Positions 9,164 to 59,619 of a DNA stretch of 64,000 nucleotides are shown in pieces (positions within the stretch are counted from its first letter, which is position 1; each line of letters starts with the position of its first letter). A program made the position numbers and the translations under genes. A model generated the notes under the pieces. That model was not told where the DNA came from and ran no database searches. It worked only from the letters and a program-made list of their open reading frames with translations. The DNA lies in the NCBI GenBank assembly GCA_018675685.1, contig JABGXP010000014.1, positions 81,288 through 145,287 of the forward strand, in the 5' to 3' direction. This DNA is from a bacterium. Its GTDB lineage: Bacteria; Patescibacteriota; Minisyncoccia; Moranbacterales; DUUL01.

Positions 9164-9168
9164 ATATT

Positions 9169-10122: not shown

Positions 10123-10129
10123 CTTTTAT

Positions 10130-10588
10130 TTATTTTGTAGTAGTATTGCTAGCTATTTTGTGGTCAATTAAAAGCGTTCCTTCAAGATGGTCAATTTCGT
10201 GTTGTAGCGCTCGGGCAAAGAACCCACGAGCCCTAATTATTTGTTTTTTGCCGTTTGCATCGATTGCCTTAACTTTTATTTTTTCGTATCGCTCAATTTG
10301 TAGGAATTTTCCAGGGAAAGAAAGGCAACCTTCCTCAGAAAGGATTTTTTCCCCTGAAAGTTTTTTAATTTCAGGATTAATCAATACAAAAAGTTCATCT
10401 TCGATTTCTATAATGCAAAGTTGAATATTTTCACCAACCTGCGGTGCTGCAAGTCCAACACCTTTATGTGCTCTTAAGGTATCTGTCATTTCGGTGATAA
10501 GGTTCTTAATCCTATCATTAGTTGGATCCATCACAGGAAGAGATTTTTTTCGTAAAATATCATTTGGGAAGGTCAGTAGTTCTAGCAT
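10130..10588 (-). CDS. def: peptide deformylase
   Basis: The three Def motifs GVGLAAPQVG, EGCLSFPG and HEIDHLEG. Start moved to ATG 10588 (MLELLTFPNDILRKK...), because the track's longer N-terminus overlaps the priA 3' end and is not Def-like. Confidence 0.92.
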   Translation of the reverse strand: MLELLTFPNDILRKKSLPVMDPTNDRIKNLITEMTDTLRAHKGVGLAAPQVGENIQLCIIEIEDELFVLINPEIKKLSGEKILSEEGCLSFPGKFLQIERYEKIKVKAIDANGKKQIIRARGFFARALQHEIDHLEGTLLIDHKIASNTTTK

Positions 10589-10646
10589 CAGACTGTAGTT
10601 AGATTTAATAAGTTGTTGAGAAAATTTACTTGATATTCTTATTGTA

Positions 10647-12653
10647 TTAGAAAATTGATTCAGAATCAACATCAATAATCCATTCATCAGGAACGATATT
10701 TGAAATACTCTTCCAAGTTTCAGATGTAAATGATGTTGTTTTCAAGAGAATGTGTTTTTCCCATCTCCCCCTGACCTTTTTGATAGTAGCAAAATAAGGT
10801 GGTTGAACCAAGGTTTTTGAGTTTCTAAAGTTTGTCGAAAGTTTATTGTAGGTTACTCTCGTTTTTTTAGCAAGAGTTGCTTCGTTAGGTTGCTTGAGAG
10901 TAAGACGAATTATATAAGAAAAAGGAGGGTAACTAAAAGCTTTTCTTGTCTCCAGTTCTTCCTTTGCAAATTCTAACCAATTTTGTTTCTGCACAGTTTC
11001 CAAGAGTTCACTTGCAGGGTCGTATGTTTGAATAATGCATTTTCCGTTTCGCTTGCTATTCACTCGATTTAGCCTTCCAGCCAATTGGAATAGATTTCCG
11101 ACCCATCTTTCGTCAAAACGAAAATCTGTTTGTCCAGCCCAATTATCAACGTTTATGGTAGCAGTGAGTTCAACGTTCGGTAAATCAAATCCTTTTGCAA
11201 TTGCATAGGTACCAACAAGAATATCAAGTTTATTATTCTGTAGTTTTTGAAAGAGTATCTTTCTGTCACTAATTTTTTCAAAAATTGTGCCATCAATAAG
11301 CTCGATTCTTGCGGAAGGGTAATGTTTCTTAAGGAAGCTGGCAACACCCTCTGTTCCAAACCCAATGTCCTTTAAGCGAAAACTTTTGCAAGAAGGACAT
11401 TGAGTCAGATTTGATGTTTTGAATGAGCAATGAAGACATTTATAGTTATTTTTTTCATGAACAAGAGGTAAGTTGCAAGAAGGGCATTGAAGTTTCTTCT
11501 TGCAATCAGTGCAATAGATAAGCTTACTTTTACCTCTTCTTGGAATGAGCACAAAAGAAAGCCCTTTCCTTTTAAGTGTTTTTGCAAGTTCAGTTTCCAG
11601 CTCTTCTGAAAAAGGAATCTCTCCTCTTTTAGTGTATATTTTTCTTAAATCAGGCAAAATAAACTCAGGTTCTATAACTTGGAAACCTTTTATTTTTAAT
11701 CTAGGGAGCTCCAAGAAGTAATATTTTCCATCTAGAGATTTTTTGACGGATTCCATCGACGGTGTACTTGAAATGAAAATAGTTTTAGTTTTGTAGATTT
11801 TCGTCATCATCTCCACTACAGTTCTTGCGTGATATCGAGGTGAACTATCCCATTGTTTATGCGAGATATCTTGCTCTTCATCAACAATGATTAATCCTAA
11901 ATTTTTAAACGGTAAGAAGAGCCCAATTCTGGTTGAAATTATAATATCAGCTGAACCTTCTTTTATTTGATTAAGCGCAAAAGTTACTTCCGTGGATTTC
12001 AATTTGGAATGGAAGAACAAGATGTTTTTTCCAGAAAATCTCTTTTTATATCTGATAATTTCTTGATTGGAGAGAAAAATTTCAGGAATAATTAAAAGAG
12101 ATTGTTTCTTTTCCTTGAGCATTTCTTGCATAGTAGTCATAGCCACCTCTGTTTTTCCGGCACAAGCAGGACCAAAGAGAAGAAATGGCTTTGTTGCGTT
12201 TCCATGTTTTATTTCTCCAATGACACTTTTTTGCTCTTTGGTGTGTTTTATTTTTTTTTGATCTTTCTCAGACTTAGACTGCTTAACAAAACAGGGAGTT
12301 TCTTTTTTGGCAAACTTTGGCACAAATTGTTTTGTGACAACACCAAGTGAGGTTAGATAATATACAGAAATTTGCCTTGCTAGTTTAATTTGCCTTGGAG
12401 TTAAAAATCCATAGCTAATAACTTTTGAAATAGGCCTTGTTTTGAATGTTGGGCGAGTTGTTTTTTTTGCTACAATCCCCGTAATCTTTTTTCTTCCGAA
12501 ATTAATCTCAACCAATGTTCCTATTGCTATTTCAATGTTATTTGAATAGGTGAAAAACTGAGGCTTATTCCGAGCCACCTTTGTTAGTGGGATGACATCA
12601 AAATAGTTCATTTTGTTTAAATATTTTTTGCTATTCTCTAATTTATTTTCCAA
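10647..12653 (-). CDS. priA: primosomal protein N' (replication restart helicase PriA)
   Basis: Walker A LLFGPACAGKTEV, DEEQD box (IIVDEEQD), and a Cys-rich zinc-binding insert (CTDCKKKLQCPSCNLPL...CLHCSF...CPSCKS). Confidence 0.9.
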   Translation of the reverse strand: MENKLENSKKYLNKMNYFDVIPLTKVARNKPQFFTYSNNIEIAIGTLVEINFGRKKITGIVAKKTTRPTFKTRPISKVISYGFLTPRQIKLARQISVYYLTSLGVVTKQFVPKFAKKETPCFVKQSKSEKDQKKIKHTKEQKSVIGEIKHGNATKPFLLFGPACAGKTEVAMTTMQEMLKEKKQSLLIIPEIFLSNQEIIRYKKRFSGKNILFFHSKLKSTEVTFALNQIKEGSADIIISTRIGLFLPFKNLGLIIVDEEQDISHKQWDSSPRYHARTVVEMMTKIYKTKTIFISSTPSMESVKKSLDGKYYFLELPRLKIKGFQVIEPEFILPDLRKIYTKRGEIPFSEELETELAKTLKRKGLSFVLIPRRGKSKLIYCTDCKKKLQCPSCNLPLVHEKNNYKCLHCSFKTSNLTQCPSCKSFRLKDIGFGTEGVASFLKKHYPSARIELIDGTIFEKISDRKILFQKLQNNKLDILVGTYAIAKGFDLPNVELTATINVDNWAGQTDFRFDERWVGNLFQLAGRLNRVNSKRNGKCIIQTYDPASELLETVQKQNWLEFAKEELETRKAFSYPPFSYIIRLTLKQPNEATLAKKTRVTYNKLSTNFRNSKTLVQPPYFATIKKVRGRWEKHILLKTTSFTSETWKSISNIVPDEWIIDVDSESIF

Positions 12654-13432
12654 TGACCAACGAGATAACCAACTCCAATAGGCGCTTCATAGGAAAGTTG
12701 CTTAAAAGTGTGCCTATGATTCTCTAGTGCCCCAAGCGCAATAATAATCGAGCGTAGACCACATTCTCCAGCTTCTTCACAAAAATCAGGATTTAAATTC
12801 ATGATTTTAGAGGTCTCGTTTTTCTTGAGAAGCTCTATGAGCGTTTGATCAAATTTGACTCCATATGGAGAGAACCCAGCAGGGGCATCTTCAGTAAGAC
12901 GATGAGACATGTCTCCGCTGGCAATAATCGCAACATTTTCATTAACTTCGTCGATGACCTCACTTATGAATTTTCCGAAATTAAAATGTGTTTGCCAATC
13001 TAACGCTGTGTATGTCAAGGGAATAATCTTTGGCCTCCAACTCAAGTCTTTTAAGAGATGAAAAAGAGGAATAAGCACACCATGATCAATTTTTGACTCT
13101 CGAAGAACCTCTATCGGAAAATGTTTCTTCCTTAATTCAGAAAAAACTAGTTTTGCTAATTCTGGGTTGTTAGAAAAAGAAAAGTCGCTATTAGATGCTC
13201 CAAAATCAGAAAAACTACCCTTGAAATTATCTTCAAAGTTAATTGTGAATTTATCATATCTCATCGGTCCATGAGGTGAAACAATTATGATTGTCTCTGG
13301 TGCGGCTTTCTTGAATTCTTTCGCCAGTTTTTCCAGTGCATCAATTGTTTTTTTCGCAAGAGTAATTTGAGATCCTCCAATCTCTGGAATGATAAGTGGT
13401 GGATGAGGGCAAATTGCAGCAAAATTCAACAT
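12638..13432 (-). CDS. LigB-superfamily (class III extradiol dioxygenase subunit B-like) protein
   Basis: N-terminus AAICPHPPLIIPEIGG, then VSPHGP and ASGDMSHRL, typical of LigB/DODA-type proteins. Overlaps priA by 16 nt. Confidence 0.6.
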   Translation of the reverse strand: MLNFAAICPHPPLIIPEIGGSQITLAKKTIDALEKLAKEFKKAAPETIIIVSPHGPMRYDKFTINFEDNFKGSFSDFGASNSDFSFSNNPELAKLVFSELRKKHFPIEVLRESKIDHGVLIPLFHLLKDLSWRPKIIPLTYTALDWQTHFNFGKFISEVIDEVNENVAIIASGDMSHRLTEDAPAGFSPYGVKFDQTLIELLKKNETSKIMNLNPDFCEEAGECGLRSIIIALGALENHRHTFKQLSYEAPIGVGYLVGHWKIN

Positions 13433-27950: not shown

Positions 27951-30650
27951 CTAAAGTGAGATCCTTAGAATATCACCATTTTTAGTGCTAATAAATGCTC
28001 GATCCTGTTTTTCATTGACCCAGAAGTGTTCAGCATCTATGAATTTTTCACTGAATTTTTTCACTGTCTCCGATTGATTGCTCTTTAAAATCTTCATAAG
28101 AACCCCGTTTTTTGAGTCCAAAGAATATATATTACTTGGTTGAGACCTAGTTTCGATATCGACAATTCTTGTCTCTTCATAATCATCATTTTTTGCAGAG
28201 AAAGAAGTTTTTAATTTTCCTTCAAAGTATTGTTGAATTTCTCCGTTTTCAGATGCCACCAAAAGTGAATCATCAACCGCTAAGTCAATTGCTGCTGAAA
28301 AGAATTGTTGGTTCGGTATCCTGATTTTATAATTATGAAAACCTCCTGGTTTGCGAGGAAATTGATAGATATTCTTTGAATTATTATCAAGAATATAAAG
28401 ATATTGGAGATAAACCCCAGCTCCTCCAATGGCAAGATTGTTAGGGAGTTTAATATCAACATCTGTAAAGCGATTTGTTACGGGGCTATAAGAAAAAACA
28501 CGCTTTTCTGAAATAAGGAAGACCAGTCTAAGGGTCGGCATAGATACAAGTGTTTTGGTTTCTTTCATATCATTCTTAAGAGGGACTTCTTTCAAATTAT
28601 TATTGGTGATGTCTAATCGGAAGAATTTTCCTGAAGCTGTGAGGATGAATAATTCGTCCTTATCTCCAGTTAAAGCTTTAATCTCCTCATTAACAGCTGC
28701 TATTGTTGTTGTTTCTGTCTCACTTTCGGAACCTCCTCTTTTTTGATCATTTATTATCTCGGTAGTTGAGGTTTCATTGAAAGCTTTATTTCCAATTAAT
28801 TTAGACAAAAATGAGAATAAGAAAATCAACGCCAAGAGAGAAATCGTGCCTATAAGAATTATTTTTTTGTATTTTCTTGTAAGCAAAACAAACTTTCTCT
28901 TGAGTCTCCCCAAATCTTTTTGTTTTGAGATTGCTATAACAGAGGTAATTGAACTCGTCATGGCATCTCGAAAAGAAGTTTTTATTTGTGTATCAGTTGG
29001 TTTTGTACTTTCGCTGGCAATGTTATTTCCCTTCCCGATTCTCTTCTCTCCAGAGACAAGAGAATTAATCTTAGCATGCATAGCTGTGTAGAGCTCCTTG
29101 ATTTTTTCTGTCAATTTAAGGAATATAGACTTTAGCTCATTCAGAATCCTTTGAAAATCAATTAAATCAAGTTTCTCTTTCACTTTTTTTAAATAGACGC
29201 CAATGGTTCTTCGAACACTCTTGGCTTGTTTTTCTTTAAATGTAGACTCTTCTTTTTTTCGTATCTCTCCATTTTTTACACGCATAAACTCTCTTTCTTT
29301 ACGAATCGTTTCTTTTTCTGCCTCCATTTTTTCTTGCTCCTCTAGTTCTTTCGATGGTTCAATGGGGTAGGATATGCTGTTATTGAAAGAGAGGTCTTTT
29401 ATGTTGTCATCTGATTTCCCAAGCTTAATTTTCGAAATTAAAGGGATTGAACTTGCTGAAATATTGTTATTTTTTTTCAAATCCTCAAGAGTTTTTTTGG
29501 CTTTATTTAAAATAGAATTAAAGCTCTTCTCATTGGTGTCGTCAATTTCCTTCATTTCAAGAACTTCTTTATTCCCATCAGCTTCTTTAATAAAAAGTTC
29601 CGGTTGCTCTTCAAACGGAGAAATAGGAGATGATCCCACAGTTTTGTTTTTTTGTTCCGTAGGCGCAGTTGGTTTGTTCGGAATATTCACTGCCCCTTTC
29701 TTTGCCTTTTTAGACAATTCTATTTCTCCGTCTCTTGTCTTTTTTGGTATTAATGAGGAGATTGGGGCCTCTGTCGTGATACTAACTTCTTTGTCTTTGG
29801 TATTTTTAGTCTCCTGTTCTATGTTTTTTAGTGAGCGGCATCTTTTGCCTAGAGAGGTCTTTGGAGTGAACGCTTCACTTTCTCCAAAAAAATTAAGCTT
29901 TGCGAGATCTTTTTCTTTTGGAGCCGAAGTCACGCTTTTCTCTTTGATGTTAGTGATAACAACCCCCACATCCTCTCCCTCTAAGTCCAAAGTTGATTTG
30001 AGAATATTATCAAATTCACTGGAAGTAAAGGTTTTTGTGTGGCGAGTGATTTCCTCCCAAGAAAGGGAGTCAAAAAGTTTCTTTGTTGAAAAAATAAGTT
30101 TATCTCCAATTGAGAGTTCACCATAAGAAATATCAGAAAATGTTTTCACAGGGTGCACGTTTTTTTCCTCATTTAACCCCTTTGATATTTCAGCAATTTT
30201 TTTATTCTTGGAGAGAAAAATTTGTCCATTCCCAAGCTTAGTAAAATGGAGTTCATTTCCGCTGATAACTCCAATAACAGCATCTAAATTATTGATCCAG
30301 TTTGTTATTTCATGTTGAGCAAGATCCTCTAATGCCAGGTTGATCTTATTAAGGGCACTTCCAAAACTTTCCTCTGTTCCCCTGTTTGGTTTTAAGAAGA
30401 ATTCTCGCTTAATCACCTGGGAAAGAAGATTCGGAAGATAGGCGGATCCTTCTGAGTTGTCATTACTTCTGATTATACCAAAAAGGTCTCCCAATTTACG
30501 TTGGGCTGGATTCTCTCCCTCAAAATGAAAAGTGTTTGAAAATGGTTGCAAAGCTTTATCTTTACAGACCGCCACCAAGAAGGAATCTAATTCAATTTCA
30601 ATTTTAGATTTTTTTTCTTTAATATTGTTGTGCATAGCAAAATATTTCAA
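27951..30650 (-). CDS. large membrane protein: N-terminal PP2C/SpoIIE-like domain, K/E-rich linker, one TM, C-terminal beta-propeller-like ectodomain
   Basis: The N-terminal roughly 240 aa follows a PP2C-like layout (GDLFGIIRS...; DAVIGVISGNELHFTKLGNGQIFL; LSIGDKLIFSTKKLFD; GEDVGVVITNI). The TM is IILIGTISLLALIFLFSFL. The C-terminal roughly 290 aa consists of repeated beta units. The start is either TTG 30650 or ATG 30635. Confidence 0.55.
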   Translation of the reverse strand: MKYFAMHNNIKEKKSKIEIELDSFLVAVCKDKALQPFSNTFHFEGENPAQRKLGDLFGIIRSNDNSEGSAYLPNLLSQVIKREFFLKPNRGTEESFGSALNKINLALEDLAQHEITNWINNLDAVIGVISGNELHFTKLGNGQIFLSKNKKIAEISKGLNEEKNVHPVKTFSDISYGELSIGDKLIFSTKKLFDSLSWEEITRHTKTFTSSEFDNILKSTLDLEGEDVGVVITNIKEKSVTSAPKEKDLAKLNFFGESEAFTPKTSLGKRCRSLKNIEQETKNTKDKEVSITTEAPISSLIPKKTRDGEIELSKKAKKGAVNIPNKPTAPTEQKNKTVGSSPISPFEEQPELFIKEADGNKEVLEMKEIDDTNEKSFNSILNKAKKTLEDLKKNNNISASSIPLISKIKLGKSDDNIKDLSFNNSISYPIEPSKELEEQEKMEAEKETIRKEREFMRVKNGEIRKKEESTFKEKQAKSVRRTIGVYLKKVKEKLDLIDFQRILNELKSIFLKLTEKIKELYTAMHAKINSLVSGEKRIGKGNNIASESTKPTDTQIKTSFRDAMTSSITSVIAISKQKDLGRLKRKFVLLTRKYKKIILIGTISLLALIFLFSFLSKLIGNKAFNETSTTEIINDQKRGGSESETETTTIAAVNEEIKALTGDKDELFILTASGKFFRLDITNNNLKEVPLKNDMKETKTLVSMPTLRLVFLISEKRVFSYSPVTNRFTDVDIKLPNNLAIGGAGVYLQYLYILDNNSKNIYQFPRKPGGFHNYKIRIPNQQFFSAAIDLAVDDSLLVASENGEIQQYFEGKLKTSFSAKNDDYEETRIVDIETRSQPSNIYSLDSKNGVLMKILKSNQSETVKKFSEKFIDAEHFWVNEKQDRAFISTKNGDILRISL

Positions 30651-51302: not shown

Positions 51303-51341
51303 AAAGAGGGTAACCAGGAACTTTGGTCACCCTCTTTTTTG
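51303..51341 (+). terminator. rho-independent terminator of the atp operon
   Basis: aaagagggtaacc (51303-51315) / ggtcaccctcttt (51325-51337) with one mismatch, followed by tttttt. Confidence 0.75.
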
Positions 51342-51646: not shown

Positions 51647-52606
51647 TCAAGTTGTGCTTTTTCTTCCTAGCATTTCAAGGAGAGAGGGGAGTGCAAAGTG
51701 AACGACAATTCCAATTCCAATAGCTGAAAGTGGCACCCAGTAGAGCGCGTGACAATTTTCAAGGAGATACCAAGTTGCAACGAGAGCCGTTACTCCTGCA
51801 GTATCAAACTTCCAACCATAATCGCTGAGTTCTACATGTTTCCAGGTATTAGCAATAAGAGCTATTGCCAAAACGATAAGCGCTAGTACCCACGGCAACT
51901 TTTTTGTATTTTCGCAAGTAGTTGATGTCCCCTTAACATCTCCAGCATTTTCTGATCCTGCTCCTTCCTCGGAAATTATTGGTGTGTTTTCGCCGAGAAC
52001 TTCAGCCTCTTCTTCTGGTAAGTTCTCTGTTAGACCAAGCACGCGTCCTTGGTCAGTAAGAATATCTTCCTCGGTTTCATCTTCTGTTGCTACGCGTGAT
52101 TCTATTTCAAATTCAATATCAAATTTTGCTTCTAAGTTTTGATATTCATTACCAGCATCTTCATCGAATTTTATTTTAATGCGATATTCTTTGCCTTTTG
52201 TAGCGCTCAGACGGTCCATGTATAACTCTTCTTCATCTGCCTTTTTCAAGTCATAGCGGTCCCCTGGTCCGCCAATCCGATAACTCCCATTCTCAACCCT
52301 GATAACATATAGTTTCAATTCTTCTGCTAATTTCTTGTCACCCTTAAGGTCAATAGTAAAAAATAAATTAATATCATCTGTTTCGCTGTCATTTTCCACT
52401 CTAATAGTTTTCTTTTCTTGCCAACCAGGCAGGATGTTAGTGAAATCGAAAATAGCACTTTCATTTAAATTTGTTCCCACTGGATATTCAACATCGATTT
52501 TGTCATCTGCCCAAGCAATGTTTGTGAAAAAAACTCCACTAAAAAGCAAGCTTATTGTAAGTAAGAAGAATTTTTTCAGTCCAAATTTTATACCATCTTT
52601 TTTCAT
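51647..52606 (-). CDS. TasA/camelysin-like secreted domain with C-terminal multi-TM membrane anchor
   Basis: Conventional signal peptide ending AWA/DD. The core has FDFTNILPGWQEKKTIRVEN and GNEYQNLEAKFDIEFEIE, paralleling GNEYQGDQMTFNIELYAEQ in the 350-aa protein. An acidic linker follows, then hydrophobic helices (LPWVLALIVLAIALIANTW; VTALVATWYLL; YWVPLSAIGIGIVVHFALPSLL). The start overlaps the upstream stop (ATGA). Confidence 0.55.
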   Translation of the reverse strand: MKKDGIKFGLKKFFLLTISLLFSGVFFTNIAWADDKIDVEYPVGTNLNESAIFDFTNILPGWQEKKTIRVENDSETDDINLFFTIDLKGDKKLAEELKLYVIRVENGSYRIGGPGDRYDLKKADEEELYMDRLSATKGKEYRIKIKFDEDAGNEYQNLEAKFDIEFEIESRVATEDETEEDILTDQGRVLGLTENLPEEEAEVLGENTPIISEEGAGSENAGDVKGTSTTCENTKKLPWVLALIVLAIALIANTWKHVELSDYGWKFDTAGVTALVATWYLLENCHALYWVPLSAIGIGIVVHFALPSLLEMLGRKSTT

Positions 52607-54948
52607 GCCAATATGTTATTGATAATTAACATTACTATTTCTCCCAGATCATTCTCTTCCTCTTTTTTTTCTTCTTCCTTTAACTCTTCTTTTTCTTCTG
52701 ACTCTTCTTCTTTAATCGCTTCTAGTTCTACTTGTTCCTCTTTGGGTTCCTCAGATGTTTCGTTTTCTGCTTCCTCTGCTTTCTCGTCTTTTAATTCAGG
52801 GGTTTCATTGTTAGCTGATTCTTCTTCTACACTTTCCAATTTCTCTTCTTCTGGGGCTACCTCCTCTGCAATTTCTGGTATCGAGTCTTCTTCTTTGGAG
52901 TTTTCATTATTTAAATCAGAATCCTTGTCGTCAGTTTGGTTTTCTTCACTCTCAATAGAAGACTCTTCGCCCGAATCTTCTTCAGGTAGTTCAACTTGCT
53001 CAGTATCGGTTTGCTTTATGTTTTCTTCTTGGGCCTGATCAGTTTCTCCTTTAGAAGTATCCTCCCCTTTAATGGCATCGAGGAAAACTTCATCGCCATC
53101 TTCCTTTTTTTCATCTTCGTCTTCTTCTTGCGATTCCAAAGCAATTTCTGCTAGGATTTCGCGATAAACATCTTTGGGCATTTCATCATCATTTTCATCA
53201 TCTAAAAGACCCAAGTATTCCAAGAAAACTCCCTTGCAAAATGGATGTTCTTCCTCTCTGTCGAAATCTCTTTTGTCGAAACATTCTTCCAGAACTATTG
53301 CTTGATAATAATCTTTTTCATCGCTAGAGAGTTTGTTTTCTTTGCCTAAGCGAGGATTTGGGTCAACAAAAGGACCAACACCATCTGGGATTCGTTGAAA
53401 CGCTTTATTTTCAAAGAAATCGCTTGGCTTTTGATAATCATAGTGATCATTTTCAATTTCAACACTGCCATAACGAGCAATCAGATATAATTCACCGTTG
53501 TTGTTATTATCAAAGAATTCAGCTGGATTAAATTGTCCGTCTGCATACACAACTAGATCATCGCCAGCTGGAACAATGGTCTCACCACTATCTGAAGGGT
53601 TGTCATCATTGTCGCCGTTGGAAGTCGAAATAATAATTTCATCTCCGTCTTTATTGGCAATGATCCAACCAGCCACATCCCAGTCCTTGTCATCATTATT
53701 CCAAAGTTCAATCACTTCACCATTTGGCATTGGCGCTACGTCACTTCCAGATGGATTTGCCACAAACTCATTTAAAACTATTGGCAAGAGGTTTTGTCCA
53801 CCAGGCGTGCCATAGTTATTGATTTCATCTTCCCAAAAGTCAGTATCATTAGCAGCTGGGTGATTTGTCGTGAACCAATTTTTAGCATCCGTGCCATCTC
53901 CTGGGAGAGGCATTCTTTGCATTGAACGATAATCCGAACCATTTTCTCCTGCTGGCCAAGCTGAATCTTTCCAGGCGACGTCAACTGTTGTACCAGCTTT
54001 GTTTGCAAGTAAAAGTCCCTCGCCGTCATTGTGGAGACTCACATTTGATTTATGGGTGATTCCTTTATCAGAGTCTAGATTGCTGGAGAGGCCAATAGCT
54101 GTTTCATTCCATTTTTTTCTCAAGATCAAGAAATATCCATTAGCTTTGATGCTATATCCATGTGGAATTTCTAGGTGTGCCATTGCCCCTGCGCCATGGC
54201 CAAGACCATGAACATTCCAATTTGAAAGGTCAATCTCTTTGTCTGTCATGTTGCGAAGTTCAATCCATTCGTCAGAACTTCCTTCTTCTGATCCCATCCA
54301 CATAATCTCGTTGATAACAACAGCTTGGCTAGCTGACCACTGGTCGGAAGTAACACGGTTACTCGTAGTTTCAATATCAGAAAAGCCATCAGCTCCATGG
54401 GTCGAACCTGTTTGCCAAGCTTCAAATTTAAAATCAAAATCACAAACTTTATCAGCCAGGGAAGGATTGCCATCAGTTAATTTAACGGTAAAGTTCCAAG
54501 TTTCTTTTGAAATATTTTGTGTACTCGAAAAAAGATAGTCAGCTAATTTTTGATAGGTATTTGTTTGATCGTCTTTGATTTCCAATTTTTCACAAAGATC
54601 TAAGTCGCCAGAAAGATTTGTAGTTGAAACTTTGTAATTAAAATCCAGTATCCCGAGTTTTGAAAGCGAAACAGATTTAGAAGTTTCTGTGGAGGGTGAA
54701 ACTTTGGGAGAGAAACTGTCGTCGGAAGGAATGGAAAAGTCTAGAGTGGAAGCGCCCAGAGTGTTATTTGCGCCCTCTTCTTTGTCTGAAAAACTAGCAT
54801 TAGTGCCCCCAGGAAAATTCAGTGAAAAAGAAAAAACTGATATCAAAAGACAAATTCCCACTTTTTTGAGCGAGCTTAGGATTCTTCTTGTGATAACTGA
54901 TTTATATCTCCTTTTCTTCTTTGACATCGTCTTTTTTAGTATTATCAT
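52603..54948 (-). CDS. SipW-type-signal TasA-like domain fused to two lamin-tail domains and a roughly 230-aa acidic tail
   Basis: N-terminus ...LLISVFSFSLNFPGGTNASFSDKEEGANNTLGASTLDFS, a SipW-cognate-type signal. The TasA-like core ends CDFDFKFEAWQ. Two LTD-like units are present (VVINEIMWMGSEEGSSDEWIELRNMTDKEIDLSNW...; IVLNEFVANPSG...GEVIELWNNDDKDWDVAGW...). The C-terminus is extremely D/E-rich. The start is 54948 or 54927. Confidence 0.65.
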   Translation of the reverse strand: MIILKKTMSKKKRRYKSVITRRILSSLKKVGICLLISVFSFSLNFPGGTNASFSDKEEGANNTLGASTLDFSIPSDDSFSPKVSPSTETSKSVSLSKLGILDFNYKVSTTNLSGDLDLCEKLEIKDDQTNTYQKLADYLFSSTQNISKETWNFTVKLTDGNPSLADKVCDFDFKFEAWQTGSTHGADGFSDIETTSNRVTSDQWSASQAVVINEIMWMGSEEGSSDEWIELRNMTDKEIDLSNWNVHGLGHGAGAMAHLEIPHGYSIKANGYFLILRKKWNETAIGLSSNLDSDKGITHKSNVSLHNDGEGLLLANKAGTTVDVAWKDSAWPAGENGSDYRSMQRMPLPGDGTDAKNWFTTNHPAANDTDFWEDEINNYGTPGGQNLLPIVLNEFVANPSGSDVAPMPNGEVIELWNNDDKDWDVAGWIIANKDGDEIIISTSNGDNDDNPSDSGETIVPAGDDLVVYADGQFNPAEFFDNNNNGELYLIARYGSVEIENDHYDYQKPSDFFENKAFQRIPDGVGPFVDPNPRLGKENKLSSDEKDYYQAIVLEECFDKRDFDREEEHPFCKGVFLEYLGLLDDENDDEMPKDVYREILAEIALESQEEDEDEKKEDGDEVFLDAIKGEDTSKGETDQAQEENIKQTDTEQVELPEEDSGEESSIESEENQTDDKDSDLNNENSKEEDSIPEIAEEVAPEEEKLESVEEESANNETPELKDEKAEEAENETSEEPKEEQVELEAIKEEESEEKEELKEEEKKEEENDLGEIVMLIINNILA

Positions 54949-55495
54949 TCTCTAATTCATCTGCTTTGCGTTTTTTTGTTCTTCTTCGATAATCAAGTTT
55001 TTTCAATATTTCTTTCTTGATGGTCAAAATTTCATCATAGATAATAATAACTGCGGGAACAATGATGATTAGAACAAAACCAATCGGTTTTTGCGCAGCA
55101 TTCACGGCATATCCTAAAAATGGAACAGAGAAGAGCACTTTTCCAATAACTTCATTTTTTGAGACTTGTTTGTGGTCTTTCGCATTATTAGCATCTCCTT
55201 TAGTGATGTATTTTTCGATATCGTCATTTTTTTCTATGGCTGTGATTCTATGTGTGGTCGGTGTTTTCATTTTGGAGGACTCTCCAAAAGTGATCACATC
55301 ACCAACTTGATAATTTTCAGCTGGTTTTGTGGCTACTATGCTTCCTGTGCGAATTTTTGGTTCCATTGAGCCAGAAAGCACGATAAATGATTTATAACCA
55401 CCTTTTATGGGAATAGCAGACAGAACTAAAAAAACGGCAATAATTGCAATTGCAAGGATAAATAGGTAATAGAAAGTTTTGAAGATTTTTTTCAT
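54902..55495 (-). CDS. sipW: signal peptidase I, SipW (archaeal/ER) type
   Basis: N-terminal TM, VLSGSMEPKIRTGSIV (Ser box), VGDVITF, PTTHRITAI (His box), ITKGDANNAKD, a second TM, and a basic/acidic C-terminal tail. Confidence 0.85.
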   Translation of the reverse strand: MKKIFKTFYYLFILAIAIIAVFLVLSAIPIKGGYKSFIVLSGSMEPKIRTGSIVATKPAENYQVGDVITFGESSKMKTPTTHRITAIEKNDDIEKYITKGDANNAKDHKQVSKNEVIGKVLFSVPFLGYAVNAAQKPIGFVLIIIVPAVIIIYDEILTIKKEILKKLDYRRRTKKRKADELENDNTKKDDVKEEKEI

Positions 55496-55590: not shown

Positions 55591-56643
55591 TTAGTAAGAA
55601 CTAACTATTAGTAAGTCAGTATCTTCATACCAAATCAAACCAGTCTCCCAGAGCCATTTGTCCATTTGAGTCCATTGAATAGCTCCATCATTCCATGCAG
55701 TCTTTGGGAGCAACCAAACCTTAACATCTTTCATGTCTTTTCCAAGCTCCATATCTCCGGTGAAATTGATATCACCACTTCCGTTTGATATGCTTTCTCC
55801 TAGGTATGTATCAACATTAGTACCACCATCATATCCAGCAGCTAATACATACGTTGTGTTAGGCAAAGCAACTTTTCCGTCAAATTCAAAATCAAAAGTT
55901 GGATTTTTAACTTCATAGGTTAGTGTGCCTTTGAAATCATCATCTTGAAGCACGTTCCAAGGTCCAGAAGTGTCTTTATTTTCTAGCCAAGCCTCCCCAT
56001 GAAGTTGTTCAGCATAGAGCTCAATGTTGAAAGTCATTTGATCACCTTGATATTCGTTGCCAGCGTTTTCATTCATGTGATAGCTTTGTCTAACTTGCAT
56101 GTAGCCATTAGCAGGAATCATTCCTAAGAACACTTTTTTAGCACCAGCATAGACATCATCAAGAGTTTTACCTTCTGAATCAAGGTAGAGGGTTTGTTCC
56201 CAGATAGGAGTATTACTTGAATCGTATACTTCAACGTATAGATCATAAATAATAACACTAGAGAGATCATTATTGTCAGTTGCACCACCCCAAGAACAAG
56301 CATCATTACTCCAATTACCACCTTGGCCATCACATTCAGGCTCTGATACTACACCTGTTATTTCTACAATTTCGGTGATATCCTTCCAAACATTAACAGG
56401 GTTTGCACTCTCTCCCTCATTTTCAATTTCAAAGTTGATATAATCGATATAATCTGGTTTCATGTCATCCATGGCGAAGCTTTCACTCCAAGGATTCATG
56501 TTATTTACTGAAATATCAATTGTTCCAGCAGTGAAAGTGTTGCCGACTGATTTTTCTTCATCTGAAAAATAGGCTACCGTACCACCGATTGCTACTGCTG
56601 CAACGGCTGTGATAACCATTAAACTTTTTAAAATCTTTTTCAT
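55591..56643 (-). CDS. TasA/camelysin-family (peptidase M73-like) secreted protein, candidate major fibre subunit, with extra C-terminal domain
   Basis: N-terminus MKKILKSLMVITAVAAVAIGGTVAYFSDEEKSVGNTFTAGTIDISV is the hallmark SipW-cognate signal plus the mature N-terminus of the TasA/CalY family. The core ends NEYQGDQMTFNIELYAEQ, and about 130 further residues follow. Confidence 0.75.
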   Translation of the reverse strand: MKKILKSLMVITAVAAVAIGGTVAYFSDEEKSVGNTFTAGTIDISVNNMNPWSESFAMDDMKPDYIDYINFEIENEGESANPVNVWKDITEIVEITGVVSEPECDGQGGNWSNDACSWGGATDNNDLSSVIIYDLYVEVYDSSNTPIWEQTLYLDSEGKTLDDVYAGAKKVFLGMIPANGYMQVRQSYHMNENAGNEYQGDQMTFNIELYAEQLHGEAWLENKDTSGPWNVLQDDDFKGTLTYEVKNPTFDFEFDGKVALPNTTYVLAAGYDGGTNVDTYLGESISNGSGDINFTGDMELGKDMKDVKVWLLPKTAWNDGAIQWTQMDKWLWETGLIWYEDTDLLIVSSY

Positions 56644-57225
56644 TTTTTCTTGTTAAATTTTTATACTAAATTTCTCCCTCTAGCAATTTAGTTAGTTTGG
56701 TTTAAGCTCTAATAGTTTAAACCAGAGAACCGTGCACAAATGTTTTTGGGTAGCTTATTCCTTCCTAGTGTTAATATTTAGTGTTTTATCTTAAACTTTG
56801 TTCATTTAACTAGATTTAAGGTAACAAAAAAATCAGAAACTTTTTGCTCCGTTGTTTTTTAGGGTTTTTTGATTTTGTTTTTCTTTCTTTTCAGGAATGC
56901 TCTTTCCATATCTGTTATTTAATCATTTAACAAAAATAATAAACAGACTCTTTCACAAACTAGCAACCAGGACCCCTCTTTTAATAACGAGTATAGCAAG
57001 TCATTTTCAAACGTCAAATGGGATTAAACTTATAACCCTGTTTTTAGGGCAAAAAACAGGGGGATTCCTTTTTCCGAAAAAATGTTAAATCTAATTGACA
57101 TTTCCTGGTATTTATGTTCAAATTAATGAGCAGAAAATTATCTGGTAACAGTTTTTTTACAAAAAGCACGAAAAAGCAGTTAAACAAAAAACCTAGACTA
57201 GGCTATTTCCAAAGGAGAAAGGTTC

Positions 57226-57741
57226 ATGAAAAATAGAAGAGAAGAAAGAAGATTGTTGAGAGAAGAAGGTCTCCCAATTGAAAGAATGAGAATCATCGAC
57301 ACAGCAGAGACGTTGGATTTGCAAATCAAAGAATTTCTGGGTTGTCATGTATCCGTGAGTGGTTGTGGTTCTTCGAAAGAGCAGACACTGGATCTCTCAT
57401 TGGTGAGAGAGTTTGTCGGAGCAATTCCGGTTGCCAACGTTTTGTTCGAAGCACCTCGCTTTGCATGGACCAATGAGGAAGATGATATTCCTGTCAGGGC
57501 GATTGTTCTGGAAGTTTTGGCTGGTAGCAAAGGAGATGACCTTCTGAATGGCATTTTCGATGATGTTGGCATGATCTTTGAGGATATTCGTTTTTTGAAC
57601 TTTCTCTCAGTTATCCAAGCGACGTTGTCGCCAGTGTTTCCAGTTTGTGAGCTGGAGGTTTTGCTGAAAATGATTAATGATTTCAAAAAAAGTCCGGTGA
57701 TCCAAAAATCAGACATGGGGGATGAAAATATCAATGAATAG
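57226..57741 (+). CDS. hypothetical protein (171 aa), orphan locus gene 1
   Basis: AAGGAGA lies 7 nt upstream of the ATG and the gene has its own terminator. No recognisable motif. Confidence 0.5.
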   Translation: MKNRREERRLLREEGLPIERMRIIDTAETLDLQIKEFLGCHVSVSGCGSSKEQTLDLSLVREFVGAIPVANVLFEAPRFAWTNEEDDIPVRAIVLEVLAGSKGDDLLNGIFDDVGMIFEDIRFLNFLSVIQATLSPVFPVCELEVLLKMINDFKKSPVIQKSDMGDENINE

Positions 57742-58653: not shown

Positions 58654-59619
58654 ATGGAGAAAAGAAAAAAAGGAGATAAAAAACCAGAGAATGTAAGAAT
58701 CATTTTTGTTTCTGCTGTCTGCGGAAAAGAACCAGAGCTCATGACCAGTTTTCTTGAAGAGTTTGATTCTTTCGCGAAGAAGCAGGACAAAAAAACTTTT
58801 GTCTTGATTTTCTGCGGAAAAGCAAGCGACCCAAGCAAGCTTTTGCGAAAGGCTGACATTCTGGTAACTGATCCCGTGATCACTTGGGGTGGAAGAAAGA
58901 CATTCCTTCCTCAGCTAGGTTCTGCCAACGATGAGCGCGAGAATGGAAAACGCAGAATCATTATCGTTCTTCCAAGAAAGAAGGATGAAAGAAATAAATT
59001 CTTTGCTGACCCCCGGTGTTTTGCAAAGACATTGATGCCAAATGTGGAGCATCCTCGGAAAGTTGAAAAAATCTCGCATATTCCTTTGAATGGCAAGACT
59101 CTGGAAAAAATCGAAGATGAAGTCATTTTCGAACTACCAGAACATTGTTCAGCCCCGAGAGTGATGATCGCACTTTCTAATTCTTTTGAAATGATTGAAG
59201 CGAAAAAACTGAAGGAGACAATTGAGGCACAATTTGCCCTTGAGGTGATGGTGGTTCCTTGGAAAAGCTTCCGAGCTTCAATGGCCGCCGAAGCGGATGT
59301 TTTGATTACTAGCACTGTTCAACAGCTCGATAGACTCCCAACACCTGCAAGAGTTCCCACTAATAGGCACAATGGTAGAAACAACAAGTTTGTCGAATCA
59401 AAAGTTCACACCTATCAAAACTTGGCGCATGTTGACATGTCCAAGAAGGCTAATCCAGCCCTGCAGGTTGTTCTTTTGGGAAGGGAAGTGACAGCGTTCA
59501 TTGTTCGTTATGCGGACATCCTATCCGGCTTCTTAGAGTTTCCGCCAACAAAGGCTTCTTTGTCAGCAGCTTTACAAAGAGCAGCTTTGAAAAGCGAAAA
59601 ATCAGTTCTTATCAATTAG
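58654..59619 (+). CDS. hypothetical protein (321 aa), two alpha/beta-looking halves, orphan locus gene 4
   Basis: Intact ORF. It has repeated hydrophobic-strand patterns (RIIFVSA, FVLIFCG, ADILVTD; then RVMIALS, EVMVVPW, ADVLITS). No family recognised. Confidence 0.5.
   Translation: MEKRKKGDKKPENVRIIFVSAVCGKEPELMTSFLEEFDSFAKKQDKKTFVLIFCGKASDPSKLLRKADILVTDPVITWGGRKTFLPQLGSANDERENGKRRIIIVLPRKKDERNKFFADPRCFAKTLMPNVEHPRKVEKISHIPLNGKTLEKIEDEVIFELPEHCSAPRVMIALSNSFEMIEAKKLKETIEAQFALEVMVVPWKSFRASMAAEADVLITSTVQQLDRLPTPARVPTNRHNGRNNKFVESKVHTYQNLAHVDMSKKANPALQVVLLGREVTAFIVRYADILSGFLEFPPTKASLSAALQRAALKSEKSVLIN

What the first reader, a model, noticed from the sequence alone, without database searches (positions are those of the whole stretch)
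52603..54948. TasA-like domain fused to two lamin-tail domains and a very long poly-acidic tail
Seen: after the TasA-like N-terminal roughly 190 aa, two segments have the LTD-like pattern, namely VVINEIMWMGSEEGSSDEWIELRNMTDKEIDLSNWNV...GYFLIL...SLHNDGEGLLLANKAGTTVD and IVLNEFVANPSG...GEVIELWNNDDKDWDVAGWIIANKDGDEIII...GELYLIARYG. The last roughly 230 residues are almost entirely D/E/K with short motifs ([41 protein letters not shown]).
Established: bacterial LTDs are extracellular Ig-like modules often found in surface or nuclease-associated proteins.
Inference: a TasA-type polymerisation handle would display LTDs and a polyanionic brush at the cell surface, which could bind cations or minerals, mimic nucleic acid, or act as a spacer. 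I do not recall this domain combination being described.
Basis: partly seen in the sequence, partly recalled or inferred. Interest (0 to 1): 0.55.

Follow-up and report, generated by a model that had tools for sequence, protein, structure and literature searches.

The report
LTD-tipped TasA-type fibre subunit, Patescibacteria
This gene encodes a secreted accessory subunit of a TasA-like surface fibre in an ultrasmall (Patescibacteria) bacterium: a strand-donating handle carrying two lamin-tail domains and a long acidic tail. It sits in a four-gene cassette that is widespread in that group but that no paper I could find describes.

Summary
The ORF is real: 52603-54948, minus strand, 781 aa, probably starting at Met8. 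The exact protein was assembled independently on at least 22 contigs.

Confirmed:
- Two lamin-tail domains (Pfam LTD, 83 bits).
- A net-negative disordered tail, about 180 aa, net charge -61. It is 43% D/E, not "almost entirely D/E/K".
- A TasA-like N-terminus. This protein falls below the curated cut-offs, but a family profile matches the operon's TasA-like family over the whole domain (98.8%, E 7e-17) and matches TasA (5of1) over the donor strand.

The gene is the third of four co-directional genes: a TasA-like major subunit, a SipW-type signal peptidase, this protein, and a TasA-like protein that lacks the donor strand and ends in transmembrane helices. This order recurs in most of 79 related loci across Patescibacteria. 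In some lineages the LTD follows the donor strand directly, or sipW and the LTD gene form one ORF.

Best reading: a SipW-processed, donor-strand-exchange fibre. The LTD protein is the initiator or tip subunit, comparable to TapA and to haloarchaeal TafC, and the last gene is the membrane anchor and terminator.

The ligand of the LTDs and the role of the tail are unknown. This is a new variant of a known kind, of moderate interest.

The parts
56990..57017 (-). Promoter-like site upstream of the cassette (TTGACG-16-TATACT with an upstream TG)
   Evidence: Consensus scan only, 10 of 12 matches. Not evidence of function.
55591..56643 (-). TasA-like major subunit candidate (350 aa): short signal peptide, donor-strand motif AYFSDEEKSVGNTFTAGTIDISV, jelly-roll core and an extra C-terminal region
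   Evidence: Pfam Peptidase_M73 E 9e-15, 55.4 bits (cut-off 22.5). NCBIfam cognate_SipW 34.3 bits (cut-off 19). TasA-like gene(s) lie upstream of sipW in most of the 79 related loci.
54902..55495 (-). SipW-type (archaeal/ER-type) signal peptidase I, 197 aa, with an N-terminal and a C-terminal hydrophobic segment; overlaps the start of the LTD gene by 26-47 nt
   Evidence: NCBIfam TIGR02228 sigpep_I_arch 124.8 bits (cut-off 51.85). The SipW equivalog model scores 126.7 bits, below its own cut-off of 190. Immediately upstream of the LTD gene in most of the 79 related loci.
52603..54948 (-). The finding: 781-aa ORF (probable start Met8 at 54927, giving 774 aa) for the TasA-like/LTD/LTD/acidic-tail protein
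54796..54927 (-). Signal peptide (aa 8-51): unusually long, conserved basic n-region (KKYKSVITxRI), hydrophobic core, and predicted SipW-type cleavage after GGTNA
   Evidence: Alignment A1. Helix 18-42 in the AF2 model. n-region 52% mean pairwise identity. Aligns with the signal peptide of the neighbouring TasA-like protein. The cleavage site is inferred by analogy with TasA.
54736..54795 (-). Donor-strand and linker motif (aa 52-71, SFSDKEEGANNTLGASTLDF)
   Evidence: The family profile aligns this stretch to TasA 5of1 residues 4-52 (E 0.0037). hhalign against the neighbouring TasA-like protein gives 97%, E 6e-11. pLDDT is low (33-51) in the monomer model, as expected for a strand that is donated.
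54334..54735 (-). Reduced TasA-like beta-sandwich core (aa 72-205) with invariant Cys119/Cys169 and a terminal F-x-F-x-A-W-Q strand
53791..54333 (-). Lamin-tail domain 1 (aa 206-386, VVINEIMWMGS...GTPGGQN)
   Evidence: Pfam LTD best stretch aa 205-324. Foldseek matches to the lamin A/C Ig fold. 51% mean pairwise identity within the family.
53329..53790 (-). Lamin-tail domain 2 (aa 387-540, IVLNEFVANPSG...)
   Evidence: Second Pfam LTD stretch. AF2 strands 390-519. Present only in the Moranbacteria-type long form.
53149..53328 (-). Conserved helix-loop-helix segment with two conserved Cys (C556, C571), no family assignment
   Evidence: Alignment A1. Helices 542-556, 573-578 and 592-599 with pLDDT about 90.
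52606..53148 (-). Acidic low-complexity tail (aa 601-781), net charge -61, ending in a short hydrophobic stretch GEIVMLIINNILA
   Evidence: Composition. Tails of all 40 homologues are net negative, with unconserved sequence. Only weak codon-level repeats at the DNA level.
51647..52606 (-). Anchor/terminator candidate (319 aa): ordinary signal peptide (AWA|DD), TasA-like core without donor strand, acidic linker, conserved Cys, and 2 C-terminal hydrophobic (predicted transmembrane) segments; its start overlaps the LTD gene's stop (ATGA)
   Evidence: hhalign of the anchor family against the TasA-like family gives 98.4%, E 7e-15, starting after the donor strand. 0 of 32 anchor-like ORFs have the donor motif. 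Hydrophobic segments and conserved C-terminus. Conserved position downstream of the LTD gene.
51303..51337 (-). Terminator-like hairpin downstream of the cassette (14-bp stem)
   Evidence: Consensus scan only.

Best explanation
The ORF encodes an accessory subunit of a SipW-dependent, TasA-superfamily surface fibre of a Patescibacteria (CPR) bacterium.

Shown:
- It is the third gene of a conserved four-gene cassette: TasA-like major subunit, SipW-type signal peptidase I, this protein, then a TasA-like protein with C-terminal membrane helices.
- Its N-terminus carries the SipW-type cleavage and donor-strand motif, followed by a reduced TasA-like beta-sandwich.
- It carries two lamin-tail (Ig-like) domains, a small Cys-containing helical segment and a long disordered polyanionic tail.

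Inferred mechanism:
1. After Sec export, SipW cuts after GGTNA.
2. The freed N-terminal strand inserts into the groove of a major subunit (donor-strand exchange).
3. That releases the major subunit's own strand for the next one, as proposed for TapA with TasA and for TafC in haloarchaeal tat-fimbriae.
4. The LTD protein therefore ends up at the distal tip.
5. The last gene product, which has a groove but no donor strand and sits in the membrane, accepts the last strand. This terminates and anchors the fibre.

The LTDs would be the functional head, binding a conserved but unknown ligand. The acidic tail would act as a charged, disordered brush or cation-binding appendage.
For: Cassette:
- Pfam and NCBIfam assignments of the neighbours.
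- The same gene order in all full-length homologue loci inspected and in most of 79 GTDB loci spanning Moranbacteria, Microgenomates, Saccharibacteria, Parcubacteria, CPR3 and WWE3.

Donor strand and TasA homology:
- PDB profile hit to TasA 5of1 over the donor strand.
- hhalign 97% to the neighbour and 98.8%, E 7e-17 family against family over the whole domain.
- PF12389 hit in 28 of 41 homologues, with relatives above the curated cut-off.
- Low model confidence exactly on the donor strand.

Tip or initiator role:
- In other CPR lineages the cassette's LTD protein is signal peptide + donor motif + short linker + LTD, with no pilin core. Such a protein can only donate a strand. Two of these pass the cognate_SipW cut-off.
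- sipW and the LTD gene are fused into one ORF in several Microgenomates loci, which argues for a tight functional link.

Anchor or terminator role: TasA-like core aligned from after the donor strand, 0 of 32 with the donor motif, C-terminal predicted transmembrane helices.

Published analogues with the same logic: TapA/TasA (PMC9674648), tafi TafC/TafA/TafD/TafF (PMC11821415), and tip and anchor genes in TasA-superfamily loci (bioRxiv 10.64898/2026.01.04.697558).
Against: - Polymerisation, cleavage site, stoichiometry and position in the fibre are all inferred.
- This protein keeps a complete TasA-like core, so it could also accept a strand and sit inside the shaft.
- It scores below the curated cut-offs of PF12389 and TIGR04088.
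- The predicted N-domain does not retrieve TasA among the top structural matches.
- The LTDs are more conserved than the pilin-like core, which is unusual for a host-specific tip adhesin.
- The conserved cytoplasmic n-region of the signal peptide is not explained by a simple cleaved-signal model.
Confidence: 0.55

Rival explanations
1. Shaft-decorating subunit. The protein both donates and accepts strands through its complete TasA-like core. It is therefore incorporated repeatedly along the fibre, or forms its own homopolymer, giving a filament coated with LTDs and acidic tails.
For: - The whole TasA-like core, including the last strand, is retained and well predicted.
- All secreted products of the operon are acidic, consistent with a uniformly polyanionic filament.
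- One representative has two N-domains in tandem.
Against: - Relatives in the same cassette position lack the core and can only donate a strand, which suggests the conserved role does not need a groove.
- A separate, better-scoring TasA-like gene (1-3 copies) is always present as the candidate major subunit.
- In the analogous tafi system, the two-domain subunit is about 1 per 100 major subunits (PMC11821415).
Confidence: 0.2
2. Membrane-tethered assembly factor or surface brush. The signal peptide acts as an uncleaved (or slowly cleaved) signal anchor. The LTDs then work next to SipW at the membrane, for example by holding or chaperoning subunits, or by binding the envelope. The acidic tail forms a cell-surface brush.
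For: - The cytoplasmic n-region is as conserved as the donor strand.
- SipW-LTD single-ORF fusions keep the LTD physically tied to the peptidase.
- Mans et al. 2004, as cited in PMC6085458 and PMC5118699, proposed that prokaryotic LTDs direct proteins to membranes.
Against: - The GGTNA|xFxDxE motif that marks SipW substrates and TasA donor strands is conserved, and it is retained even in the fusions, between the third hydrophobic segment and the LTD.
- The strand-donating segment would be pointless in a permanently anchored protein.
Confidence: 0.15
3. Extracellular-DNA or nutrient capture protein. The LTDs bind eDNA or another polymer, as suspected for LTDs of extracellular nucleases and ComEC-like proteins, to feed a bacterium that cannot make nucleotides. 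The TasA-like part is only a secretion and attachment device.
For: - LTDs occur in ExeM and in archaeal eDNA-metabolism proteins, and removing the LTD slows ExeM in vitro (PMC6085458, PMC5118699).
- There is a faint ExeM-model match on LTD1.
- From general knowledge: CPR bacteria depend on scavenged nucleotides.
Against: - No nuclease or other catalytic domain is present in the protein or the cassette.
- LTD1 and LTD2 are net -13 and -22, and the tail is -61. Direct DNA binding would need cation bridging.
- The LTD was dispensable for extracellular DNA degradation by ExeM in vivo (PMC6085458).
- This reading is compatible with the tip model rather than exclusive of it.
Confidence: 0.08
4. Artefact. 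The ORF is chimeric or misassembled, or the acidic tail is read-through of non-coding low-complexity DNA.
For: Low-complexity GAA/GAG-rich DNA can be misassembled, and weak 3- and 18-nt periodicity is present.
Against: - The identical 774-aa product with the same neighbours was found in at least 22 contigs from independent assemblies and sources.
- Every one of 40 full-length homologues has a comparable acidic tail.
- The stop codon overlaps the next gene's start (ATGA), as in homologous loci.
Confidence: 0.02

Closest known systems
TapA of the Bacillus subtilis tapA-sipW-tasA operon (TasA fibre nucleator and anchor; PMC9674648)
   Same: - Encoded next to sipW and the major fibre subunit.
- SipW-type signal peptide.
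- N-terminal residues resemble the major subunit's donor strand.
- A non-TasA beta-sandwich domain follows.
- The proposed role is to give the first donor strand.
   Different: - TapA has no TasA-like core, no LTD and no long polyacidic tail.
- TapA is thought to tie fibres to the cell wall, whereas here a separate membrane-anchored TasA-like protein is present.
- No sequence comparison with TapA was run here.
TafC (tip/initiator) within the haloarchaeal tat-fimbriae system TafA/TafC/TafD/TafE/TafF (PMC11821415)
   Same: - Same cast of parts: major pilin-like subunit, dedicated signal peptidase I, anchor, and a two-part subunit.
- The two-part subunit has an N-terminal pilin-like domain plus a C-terminal head domain, and is proposed to start donor-strand exchange and sit at the tip.
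- The anchor has an N-terminal pilin-like domain and C-terminal transmembrane helices that terminate assembly.
   Different: - Tafi subunits use the Tat pathway. Here there is no conserved twin-arginine motif (0 of 41).
- The head is a laminin-G-like domain in TafC and two LTDs plus an acidic tail here.
- No adapter (TafE) or DUF5305 (TafG) gene was seen here.
- The host is bacterial (Patescibacteria) rather than archaeal.
- Homology to Taf proteins was not tested.
TasA/camelysin family (Pfam PF12389 Peptidase_M73) and the wider TasA superfamily (TasA, AbpA, AbpX, CanA, threads; PMC9245690, bioRxiv 10.64898/2026.01.04.697558)
   Same: - Signal, donor-strand and first-strand sequence signature.
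- Terminal F-x-F-x-A-x-Q strand.
- Co-location with a dedicated signal peptidase I.
- Loci with predicted tip and anchor proteins.
- PF12389 was already noted to occur in Patescibacteria.
   Different: - The core here is about 135 aa, much reduced compared with TasA.
- It is fused to LTDs.
- It scores below the Pfam cut-off and does not retrieve TasA as a top structural match.
Bacterial and archaeal LTD proteins such as the nuclease ExeM and Hvo_1477/ComA-like proteins (PMC6085458, PMC5118699)
   Same: Extracellular lamin-tail Ig-like domain with the usual V-I-N-E...E-W-I-E-L...G-T-P-G signature, and a function that is still undefined.
   Different: Those LTDs accompany hydrolase or nuclease domains. 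Here they accompany a donor strand and a fibre cassette, with no catalytic domain.
Chaperone-usher pilus tip adhesins and terminators (FimH/PapG, PapH); comparison from general knowledge
   Same: - Tip-first, base-growing donor-strand-exchange logic.
- A two-domain tip subunit and a terminating, anchoring subunit.
- The predicted N-domain's best fold matches are CfaB/CfaE/FimA-type pilins.
   Different: - No chaperone or usher, and a cell with a single membrane.
- The strand is donated from the N-terminus after signal-peptidase cleavage.
- No evolutionary relationship is claimed.

Membership tests
Lamin tail domain (Pfam PF00932) | Score above Pfam's curated cut-off | tested here: met
   83.3 bits against 34.3, E 2e-23, two stretches. 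41 of 41 homologues hit.
Lamin tail domain (Pfam PF00932) | Ig-like beta-sandwich fold like the lamin A/C tail | tested here: met
   AF2 model pLDDT 82. Foldseek matches to 3gef, 1ifr, 6ghd and 7yvd with probability 1.0 and TM (target) 0.56-0.63.
TasA/camelysin family (Pfam PF12389, Peptidase_M73) | Score above Pfam's curated cut-off (22.5 bits) | tested here: not met
   No hit at E<=1 with the full protein. 19.7 bits with aa 1-600, covering only profile positions 4-79. Relatives with the same N-domain do pass (23.0-30.5 bits), and 28 of 41 homologues hit at E<=0.01.
TasA/camelysin family (Pfam PF12389, Peptidase_M73) | Homology of the whole domain, not only the signal peptide, to bona fide family members | tested here: met
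   hhalign of the N-domain family against the operon's PF12389-positive family: 98.8%, E 6.7e-17, 154 columns from the signal peptide to the last strand. The family profile hits TasA 5of1 at E 0.0037 over the first ~50 residues only.
TasA/camelysin family (Pfam PF12389, Peptidase_M73) | Jelly-roll fold superposable on TasA (5of1/8aur) | tested here: inconclusive
SipW-dependent secreted proteins (NCBIfam TIGR04088 cognate_SipW) | SipW-type signal peptide model above cut-off (19 bits) | tested here: not met
   14.3 bits, E 0.035 at aa 47-69. 8 of 41 homologues hit at E<=0.01. Donor-only LTD relatives reach 21.1 and 22.5 bits. The motif GGTNA|SFSDKEE...ASTLD is visible in the sequence.
SipW-dependent secreted proteins (NCBIfam TIGR04088 cognate_SipW) | Dedicated SipW/archaeal-type signal peptidase I encoded alongside | tested here: met
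   TIGR02228 124.8 bits against 51.85 for the gene immediately upstream. Adjacency is conserved in most of the 79 loci, with fusions in some.
SipW-dependent secreted proteins (NCBIfam TIGR04088 cognate_SipW) | Actual cleavage by SipW | not testable with these tools
   Needs N-terminal sequencing or proteomics.
Donor-strand-exchange fibre tip/initiator (TapA-like, TafC-like) | N-terminal strand resembling the major subunit's donor strand | tested here: met
   hhalign 97%, E 6e-11 to the neighbour's N-terminus. Alignment to TasA residues 4-52.
Donor-strand-exchange fibre tip/initiator (TapA-like, TafC-like) | Non-pilin head domain C-terminal to the handle | tested here: met
   Two LTDs. 119 of the 140 best N-domain representatives carry at least one LTD.
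Donor-strand-exchange fibre tip/initiator (TapA-like, TafC-like) | Strand insertion into the major subunit; one copy at the distal end | not testable with these tools
   Only single-chain prediction was available. Needs AF-Multimer/AF3, cryo-EM or immunolabelling.
Donor-strand-exchange fibre tip/initiator (TapA-like, TafC-like) | Sequence homology to TapA or TafC themselves | not tested
Tat-fimbriae (tafi) | Twin-arginine (Tat) signal on the subunits | tested here: not met
   A Tat-like [ST]RRx[FLIVM][LIVM] motif occurs in 0 of 41 family N-termini, and RR in only 8 of 41. The family consensus is KKYKSVIT.
Camelysin-type metalloprotease activity | Zinc-binding HExxH motif | tested here: not met
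   No HExxH or HxxEH motif in the 781 aa.

The most novel reading that the evidence does not exclude
The cassette encodes a previously undescribed, phylum-wide appendage of Patescibacteria, distinct from their type IV pili. It would be a TasA-superfamily fimbria whose tip is a conserved lamin-tail module with a polyanionic tail. That LTD tip would be the organelle these ultrasmall episymbionts use to grip a conserved surface polymer of host cells or to capture extracellular polymers such as cation-bridged DNA. This would also give prokaryotic LTDs their first defined function.
Probability: 0.3. Interest if true: 0.7.

Novelty: new variant of a known kind. Interest (0 to 1): 0.45.

Why it matters
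- How Patescibacteria attach to hosts and obtain building blocks is largely unknown. The CPR surface-structure papers retrieved in my searches dealt with type IV pili.
- This is a second, conserved fibre system with a defined gene set (major subunit, dedicated peptidase, LTD-bearing initiator or tip, membrane anchor). That makes it directly testable by structure prediction of complexes, cryo-ET of enrichment cultures and heterologous expression.
- It places the prokaryotic lamin-tail domain, whose function has never been established, in a concrete mechanical context.
- It extends the recently recognised TasA superfamily (TasA, AbpA, AbpX, cannulae, tafi) to a very large bacterial radiation.
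- If the protein is merely one more secreted Ig-like surface protein, the finding is ordinary.

Tried and rejected
- A single-sequence search of PDB sequences with the full protein gave only a chance hit to a glycosyltransferase. The 350-aa neighbour alone gave nothing.
- The Foldseek search with the whole 600-aa model was dominated by multi-domain beta proteins and was useful only for the LTD match.
- I checked whether a second minus-strand gene group at 8288-13432 was another such cassette. It is housekeeping (rhodanese, formyltransferase, deformylase, PriA, LigB).
- Tandem-repeat analysis of the tail found only weak codon-level periodicity, with no repeat array that would suggest expansion or misassembly.
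- The Rfam scan of the window found nothing, so there was no RNA marker for taxonomy.
- Camelysin-like protease activity was rejected because there is no HExxH motif.
- Tat export was rejected.
- Direct electrostatic DNA binding by the LTDs was judged unlikely from their net charge.
- A Pfam scan of 140 representatives failed on size. It was replaced by local HMMs built from the family alignment.
- Literature searches for TasA + LTD, LTD + Patescibacteria and SipW + Patescibacteria found no description of this architecture.

Full report
**1. What is in the sequence**

The ORF 52603..54948 on the minus strand encodes 781 aa. A database copy that is 100% identical starts at Met8 (774 aa, P0001). 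The N-termini of 40 full-length homologues align from there (consensus MKKxxKKKYKSVITxRI), so Met8 (nt 54927) is the probable start.

Pfam finds the lamin tail domain twice (PF00932, E 2e-23, 83.3 bits against a cut-off of 34.3).

An AlphaFold2 model of aa 1-600, built on a 41-sequence alignment, has mean pLDDT 82 and pTM 0.69. Its LTDs match the lamin A/C Ig fold (Foldseek probability 1.0, TM normalised by target 0.56-0.63).

Between LTD2 and the tail lies a confidently predicted helix-loop-helix with two conserved cysteines (C556, C571).

The tail (aa 601-781) has 42.5% D+E, 8.8% K+R and a net charge of -61. The whole mature protein is about -121, and LTD1 and LTD2 are -13 and -22.

**2. Is the tail real?**

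The identical 774-aa product, with the same neighbours, is encoded on at least 22 contigs. The index lists it in 49 blocks, from independent assemblies in ENA, NCBI (GCA_018669615.1), JGI and Logan.

All 40 full-length homologues carry a C-terminal low-complexity tail after the conserved helical segment. Median length is 124 aa, all are net negative (median -31, range -2 to -92), and aromatic residues and Cys are almost absent. The sequences are not conserved: some tails are D/E/K-rich and others E/P/T/V-rich.

Only weak codon-level periodicity is seen in the DNA. The tail is a selected compositional feature, not an artefact.

**3. Is the N-terminus TasA-like?**

By curated thresholds this protein fails:
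- No Peptidase_M73 hit at E<=1 for the full protein.
- 19.7 bits against a cut-off of 22.5 for aa 1-600, covering only the first 79 profile positions.
- 14.3 bits against a cut-off of 19 for the SipW-dependent signal peptide model.

At family level the relationship is clear:
- 28 of 41 homologues hit PF12389, and some relatives with the same N-domain pass the cut-off.
- The family profile's only significant hit in the PDB is TasA (5of1, E 0.0037). It aligns the stretch after the predicted cleavage site with TasA's donor strand, linker and first strands.
- An hhalign comparison between an alignment of 33 N-domains and an alignment of 59 TasA-like proteins from the same cassettes gives 98.8% probability, E 6.7e-17, over 154 columns. 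These run from the signal peptide to the last F-x-F-x-A-x-Q strand.

I conclude that it is a much reduced, divergent member of the TasA superfamily. The sequence and profile evidence supports this; the fold evidence is neutral.

In the monomer model the predicted donor segment (aa 42-66) is the only internal region of very low confidence. That fits a strand that is meant to be given away.

**4. Context**

The gene is the third of four co-directional, overlapping or closely spaced genes:
- 55591-56643: a 350-aa TasA-like protein (PF12389 E 9e-15; cognate_SipW 34.3 bits).
- 54902-55495: a SipW/archaeal-type signal peptidase I (TIGR02228, 124.8 bits).
- The LTD protein.
- 51647-52606: a 319-aa protein with no family hit.

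The 319-aa protein has:
- an ordinary signal peptide;
- a domain that aligns with the TasA-like family at 98.4%, E 7e-15, but only from the position after the donor strand;
- an acidic linker, a conserved cysteine and two C-terminal hydrophobic (predicted transmembrane) segments.

A regular expression for the donor motif is found in 59 of 77 TasA-like ORFs and in 0 of 32 anchor-like ORFs.

A scan of one genome per GTDB species returned 79 loci. My ORF/phmmer survey of them shows the order TasA-like (1-3 copies), SipW, LTD protein, and often an anchor-like gene, in most of the loci. The lineages include Moranbacteria, Microgenomates lineages, Saccharibacteria, Parcubacteria lineages, CPR3 and WWE3. 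Some records labelled Bdellovibrionales or Gammaproteobacteria carry the same cassette. Those labels were not checked; from the cassette and its relatives they may be misassigned.

The long form with two LTDs and the helical segment occurs in about a dozen species representatives, mostly Moranbacteria. The one-LTD form is much wider.

An exhaustive search of 1.84 billion representatives with the N-domain alone finds 722 clusters at E<=1e-3. Of the best 140, 119 have at least one LTD directly after the N-domain.

**5. What the relatives say about function**

In several lineages the LTD protein of the cassette has no TasA-like core. It consists of signal peptide, SipW-type motif (for example TMAYFSDTAQSTNNVFAASSQF), a short P/T linker and the LTD. 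In others a different ~100-aa domain sits between the motif and the LTD. Two of these proteins pass the cognate_SipW cut-off. The invariant combination is therefore donor strand plus LTD, next to sipW.

Such a protein can give a strand but cannot receive one. This is what has been proposed for TapA, which resembles TasA's donor strand at its N-terminus and is thought to provide the first strand (PMC9674648).

In several Microgenomates-type loci sipW and the LTD gene form one ORF. Its layout is peptidase (TM-catalytic-TM), basic linker, a third hydrophobic segment, the A-x-F-x-D motif, then the LTD. This is a Rosetta-stone argument for a direct functional link.

**6. Proposed mechanism**

Shown: the parts, their homologies and the conserved cassette.

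Inferred:
1. After export, SipW cleaves after GGTNA.
2. The new N-terminus of the LTD protein inserts into the groove of a 350-aa subunit.
3. That releases the subunit's own strand for the next subunit.
4. The membrane-embedded 319-aa protein, which has a groove but no strand, accepts the last strand, ending growth and anchoring the fibre.

The LTD protein would thus be the distal tip. This is the logic published for haloarchaeal tat-fimbriae: TafC as a two-domain tip and initiator, TafA as the major subunit, TafD as the signal peptidase I, and TafF with an N-terminal pilin-like domain and C-terminal transmembrane helices as the terminating anchor (PMC11821415). A 2026 preprint places tafi in the TasA superfamily and reports predicted tip and anchor genes as common in such loci (bioRxiv 10.64898/2026.01.04.697558).

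Differences from tafi:
- Sec rather than Tat export (no conserved twin arginine).
- LTD heads instead of a laminin-G-like domain.
- The polyanionic tail.
- A bacterial CPR host.

**7. What the LTDs and the tail do: unknown**

The role of prokaryotic LTDs has not been elucidated. They accompany extracellular nucleases and DNA-metabolism proteins, and a membrane-directing role has been suggested (PMC6085458, PMC5118699).

Here there is no catalytic domain, and the LTDs are acidic. Direct DNA binding is therefore unlikely without cation bridging.

Within the family the LTDs (51-55% mean pairwise identity) are more conserved than the pilin-like core (40%). That argues for a conserved ligand rather than a fast-evolving host-specific one.

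The tail's only conserved properties are disorder and negative charge. An entropic or electrostatic brush, or cation binding, are the plausible readings. All secreted products of the cassette are acidic.

**8. Unexplained**

- The cytoplasmic n-region of the signal peptide is as conserved as the donor strand.
- This protein, unlike the donor-only relatives, keeps a full core with a potential groove, so incorporation along the shaft cannot be excluded.
- The helix-loop-helix with two cysteines has no assigned role.

**9. Novelty**

TasA homologues had been noted in Patescibacteria only as a Pfam distribution statement (PMC9245690).

Searches for TasA with LTD, LTD with Patescibacteria, SipW with Patescibacteria or Saccharibacteria, and LTD with CPR terms found no description of this architecture or cassette. 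One CPR paper merely mentions a 'lamin tail domain protein' as a neighbour of a CRISPR locus.

Database annotations already name members 'lamin tail domain-containing protein' or 'TasA family protein'.

The kind of system (a TasA-superfamily donor-strand fibre with a dedicated peptidase, tip and anchor) is known. The LTD-bearing initiator or tip, its acidic tail and its phylum-wide presence in CPR bacteria are a new variant.

**10. Verdict**

Interest is moderate.

Noticed in passing
L036:5476-6675, L076:5344-6723, L041:5284-7206, L062:5452-6711, L042:5191-6591, L066:1601-3226: In Microgenomates-type relatives, sipW and the LTD gene are a single ORF. Its layout is signal peptidase (TM-catalytic-TM), basic linker, a third hydrophobic segment, an A-x-F-x-D donor-like motif, then the LTD. 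This could be a self-processing polyprotein.
   Followed up: partly
window 54868-54927 (aa 8-27 of the LTD protein): The cytoplasmic n-region of the signal peptide (KKYKSVITxRIxxSxxK) has 52% mean pairwise identity in the family. That is as high as the donor strand and higher than the TasA-like core, whereas the neighbouring major subunit has only a short MKKILKS n-region. No explanation was found.
   Followed up: partly
window 53149-53328 (aa 541-600): A conserved helix-loop-helix with two conserved cysteines (C556, C571) lies between LTD2 and the acidic tail. Model confidence is high and no family matches. A second invariant cysteine pair (C119/C169) lies in the N-domain. Both pairs are likely disulfides.
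   Followed up: no
L003:8145-10247, L005, L006, L010; L056:6510-7511, L062:6708-7739: The anchor-like gene downstream of the LTD gene comes in other forms. One is about 700 aa, with weak DUF11 and LPXTG-like matches below their curated cut-offs, a single C-terminal transmembrane helix and a sortase gene nearby. Another is about 340 aa and ends in GGxGxD RTX-like repeats with no transmembrane helix.
   Followed up: partly
window 51647-52606 (C-terminal 100 aa) and L001, L008, L015, L035, L040, L074: The membrane part of the anchor protein is itself conserved: a Cys followed by WPxWVW, then WYFFDKCREYxWF between hydrophobic segments. This suggests more than a passive anchor.
   Followed up: no
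window 27951-30650 (-): An 899-aa ORF with no Pfam match at E<=0.01.
   Followed up: no
window 57226-57741 (+) and 58654-59619 (+): Two ORFs (171 and 321 aa) without Pfam matches lie divergently next to the cassette. The 171-aa gene keeps this position in independent assemblies (L083-L085).
   Followed up: no
window 1-64000: No Rfam family reaches its gathering score anywhere in the 64 kb, so no tRNA, rRNA or riboswitch was detected. GC content is a uniform 34-39%.
   Followed up: no
P0057 (1017 aa), P0163, P0169, P0212, P0213, P0229, P0236: Some representatives carry the N-domain internally, at positions 300-775, behind other modules (beta-helix/NlpC-P60 in P0057; purple-acid-phosphatase-N and TIG domains in P0213). 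This hints at further fusions or merged gene calls.
   Followed up: partly
window 52603-52650 (last 15 aa, DLGEIVMLIINNILA): The acidic tail ends in a short hydrophobic stretch that the homologues do not share. Many of them end in motifs like KKEExxNxxTxxxNE or PVxII instead. Its significance is unknown.
   Followed up: no
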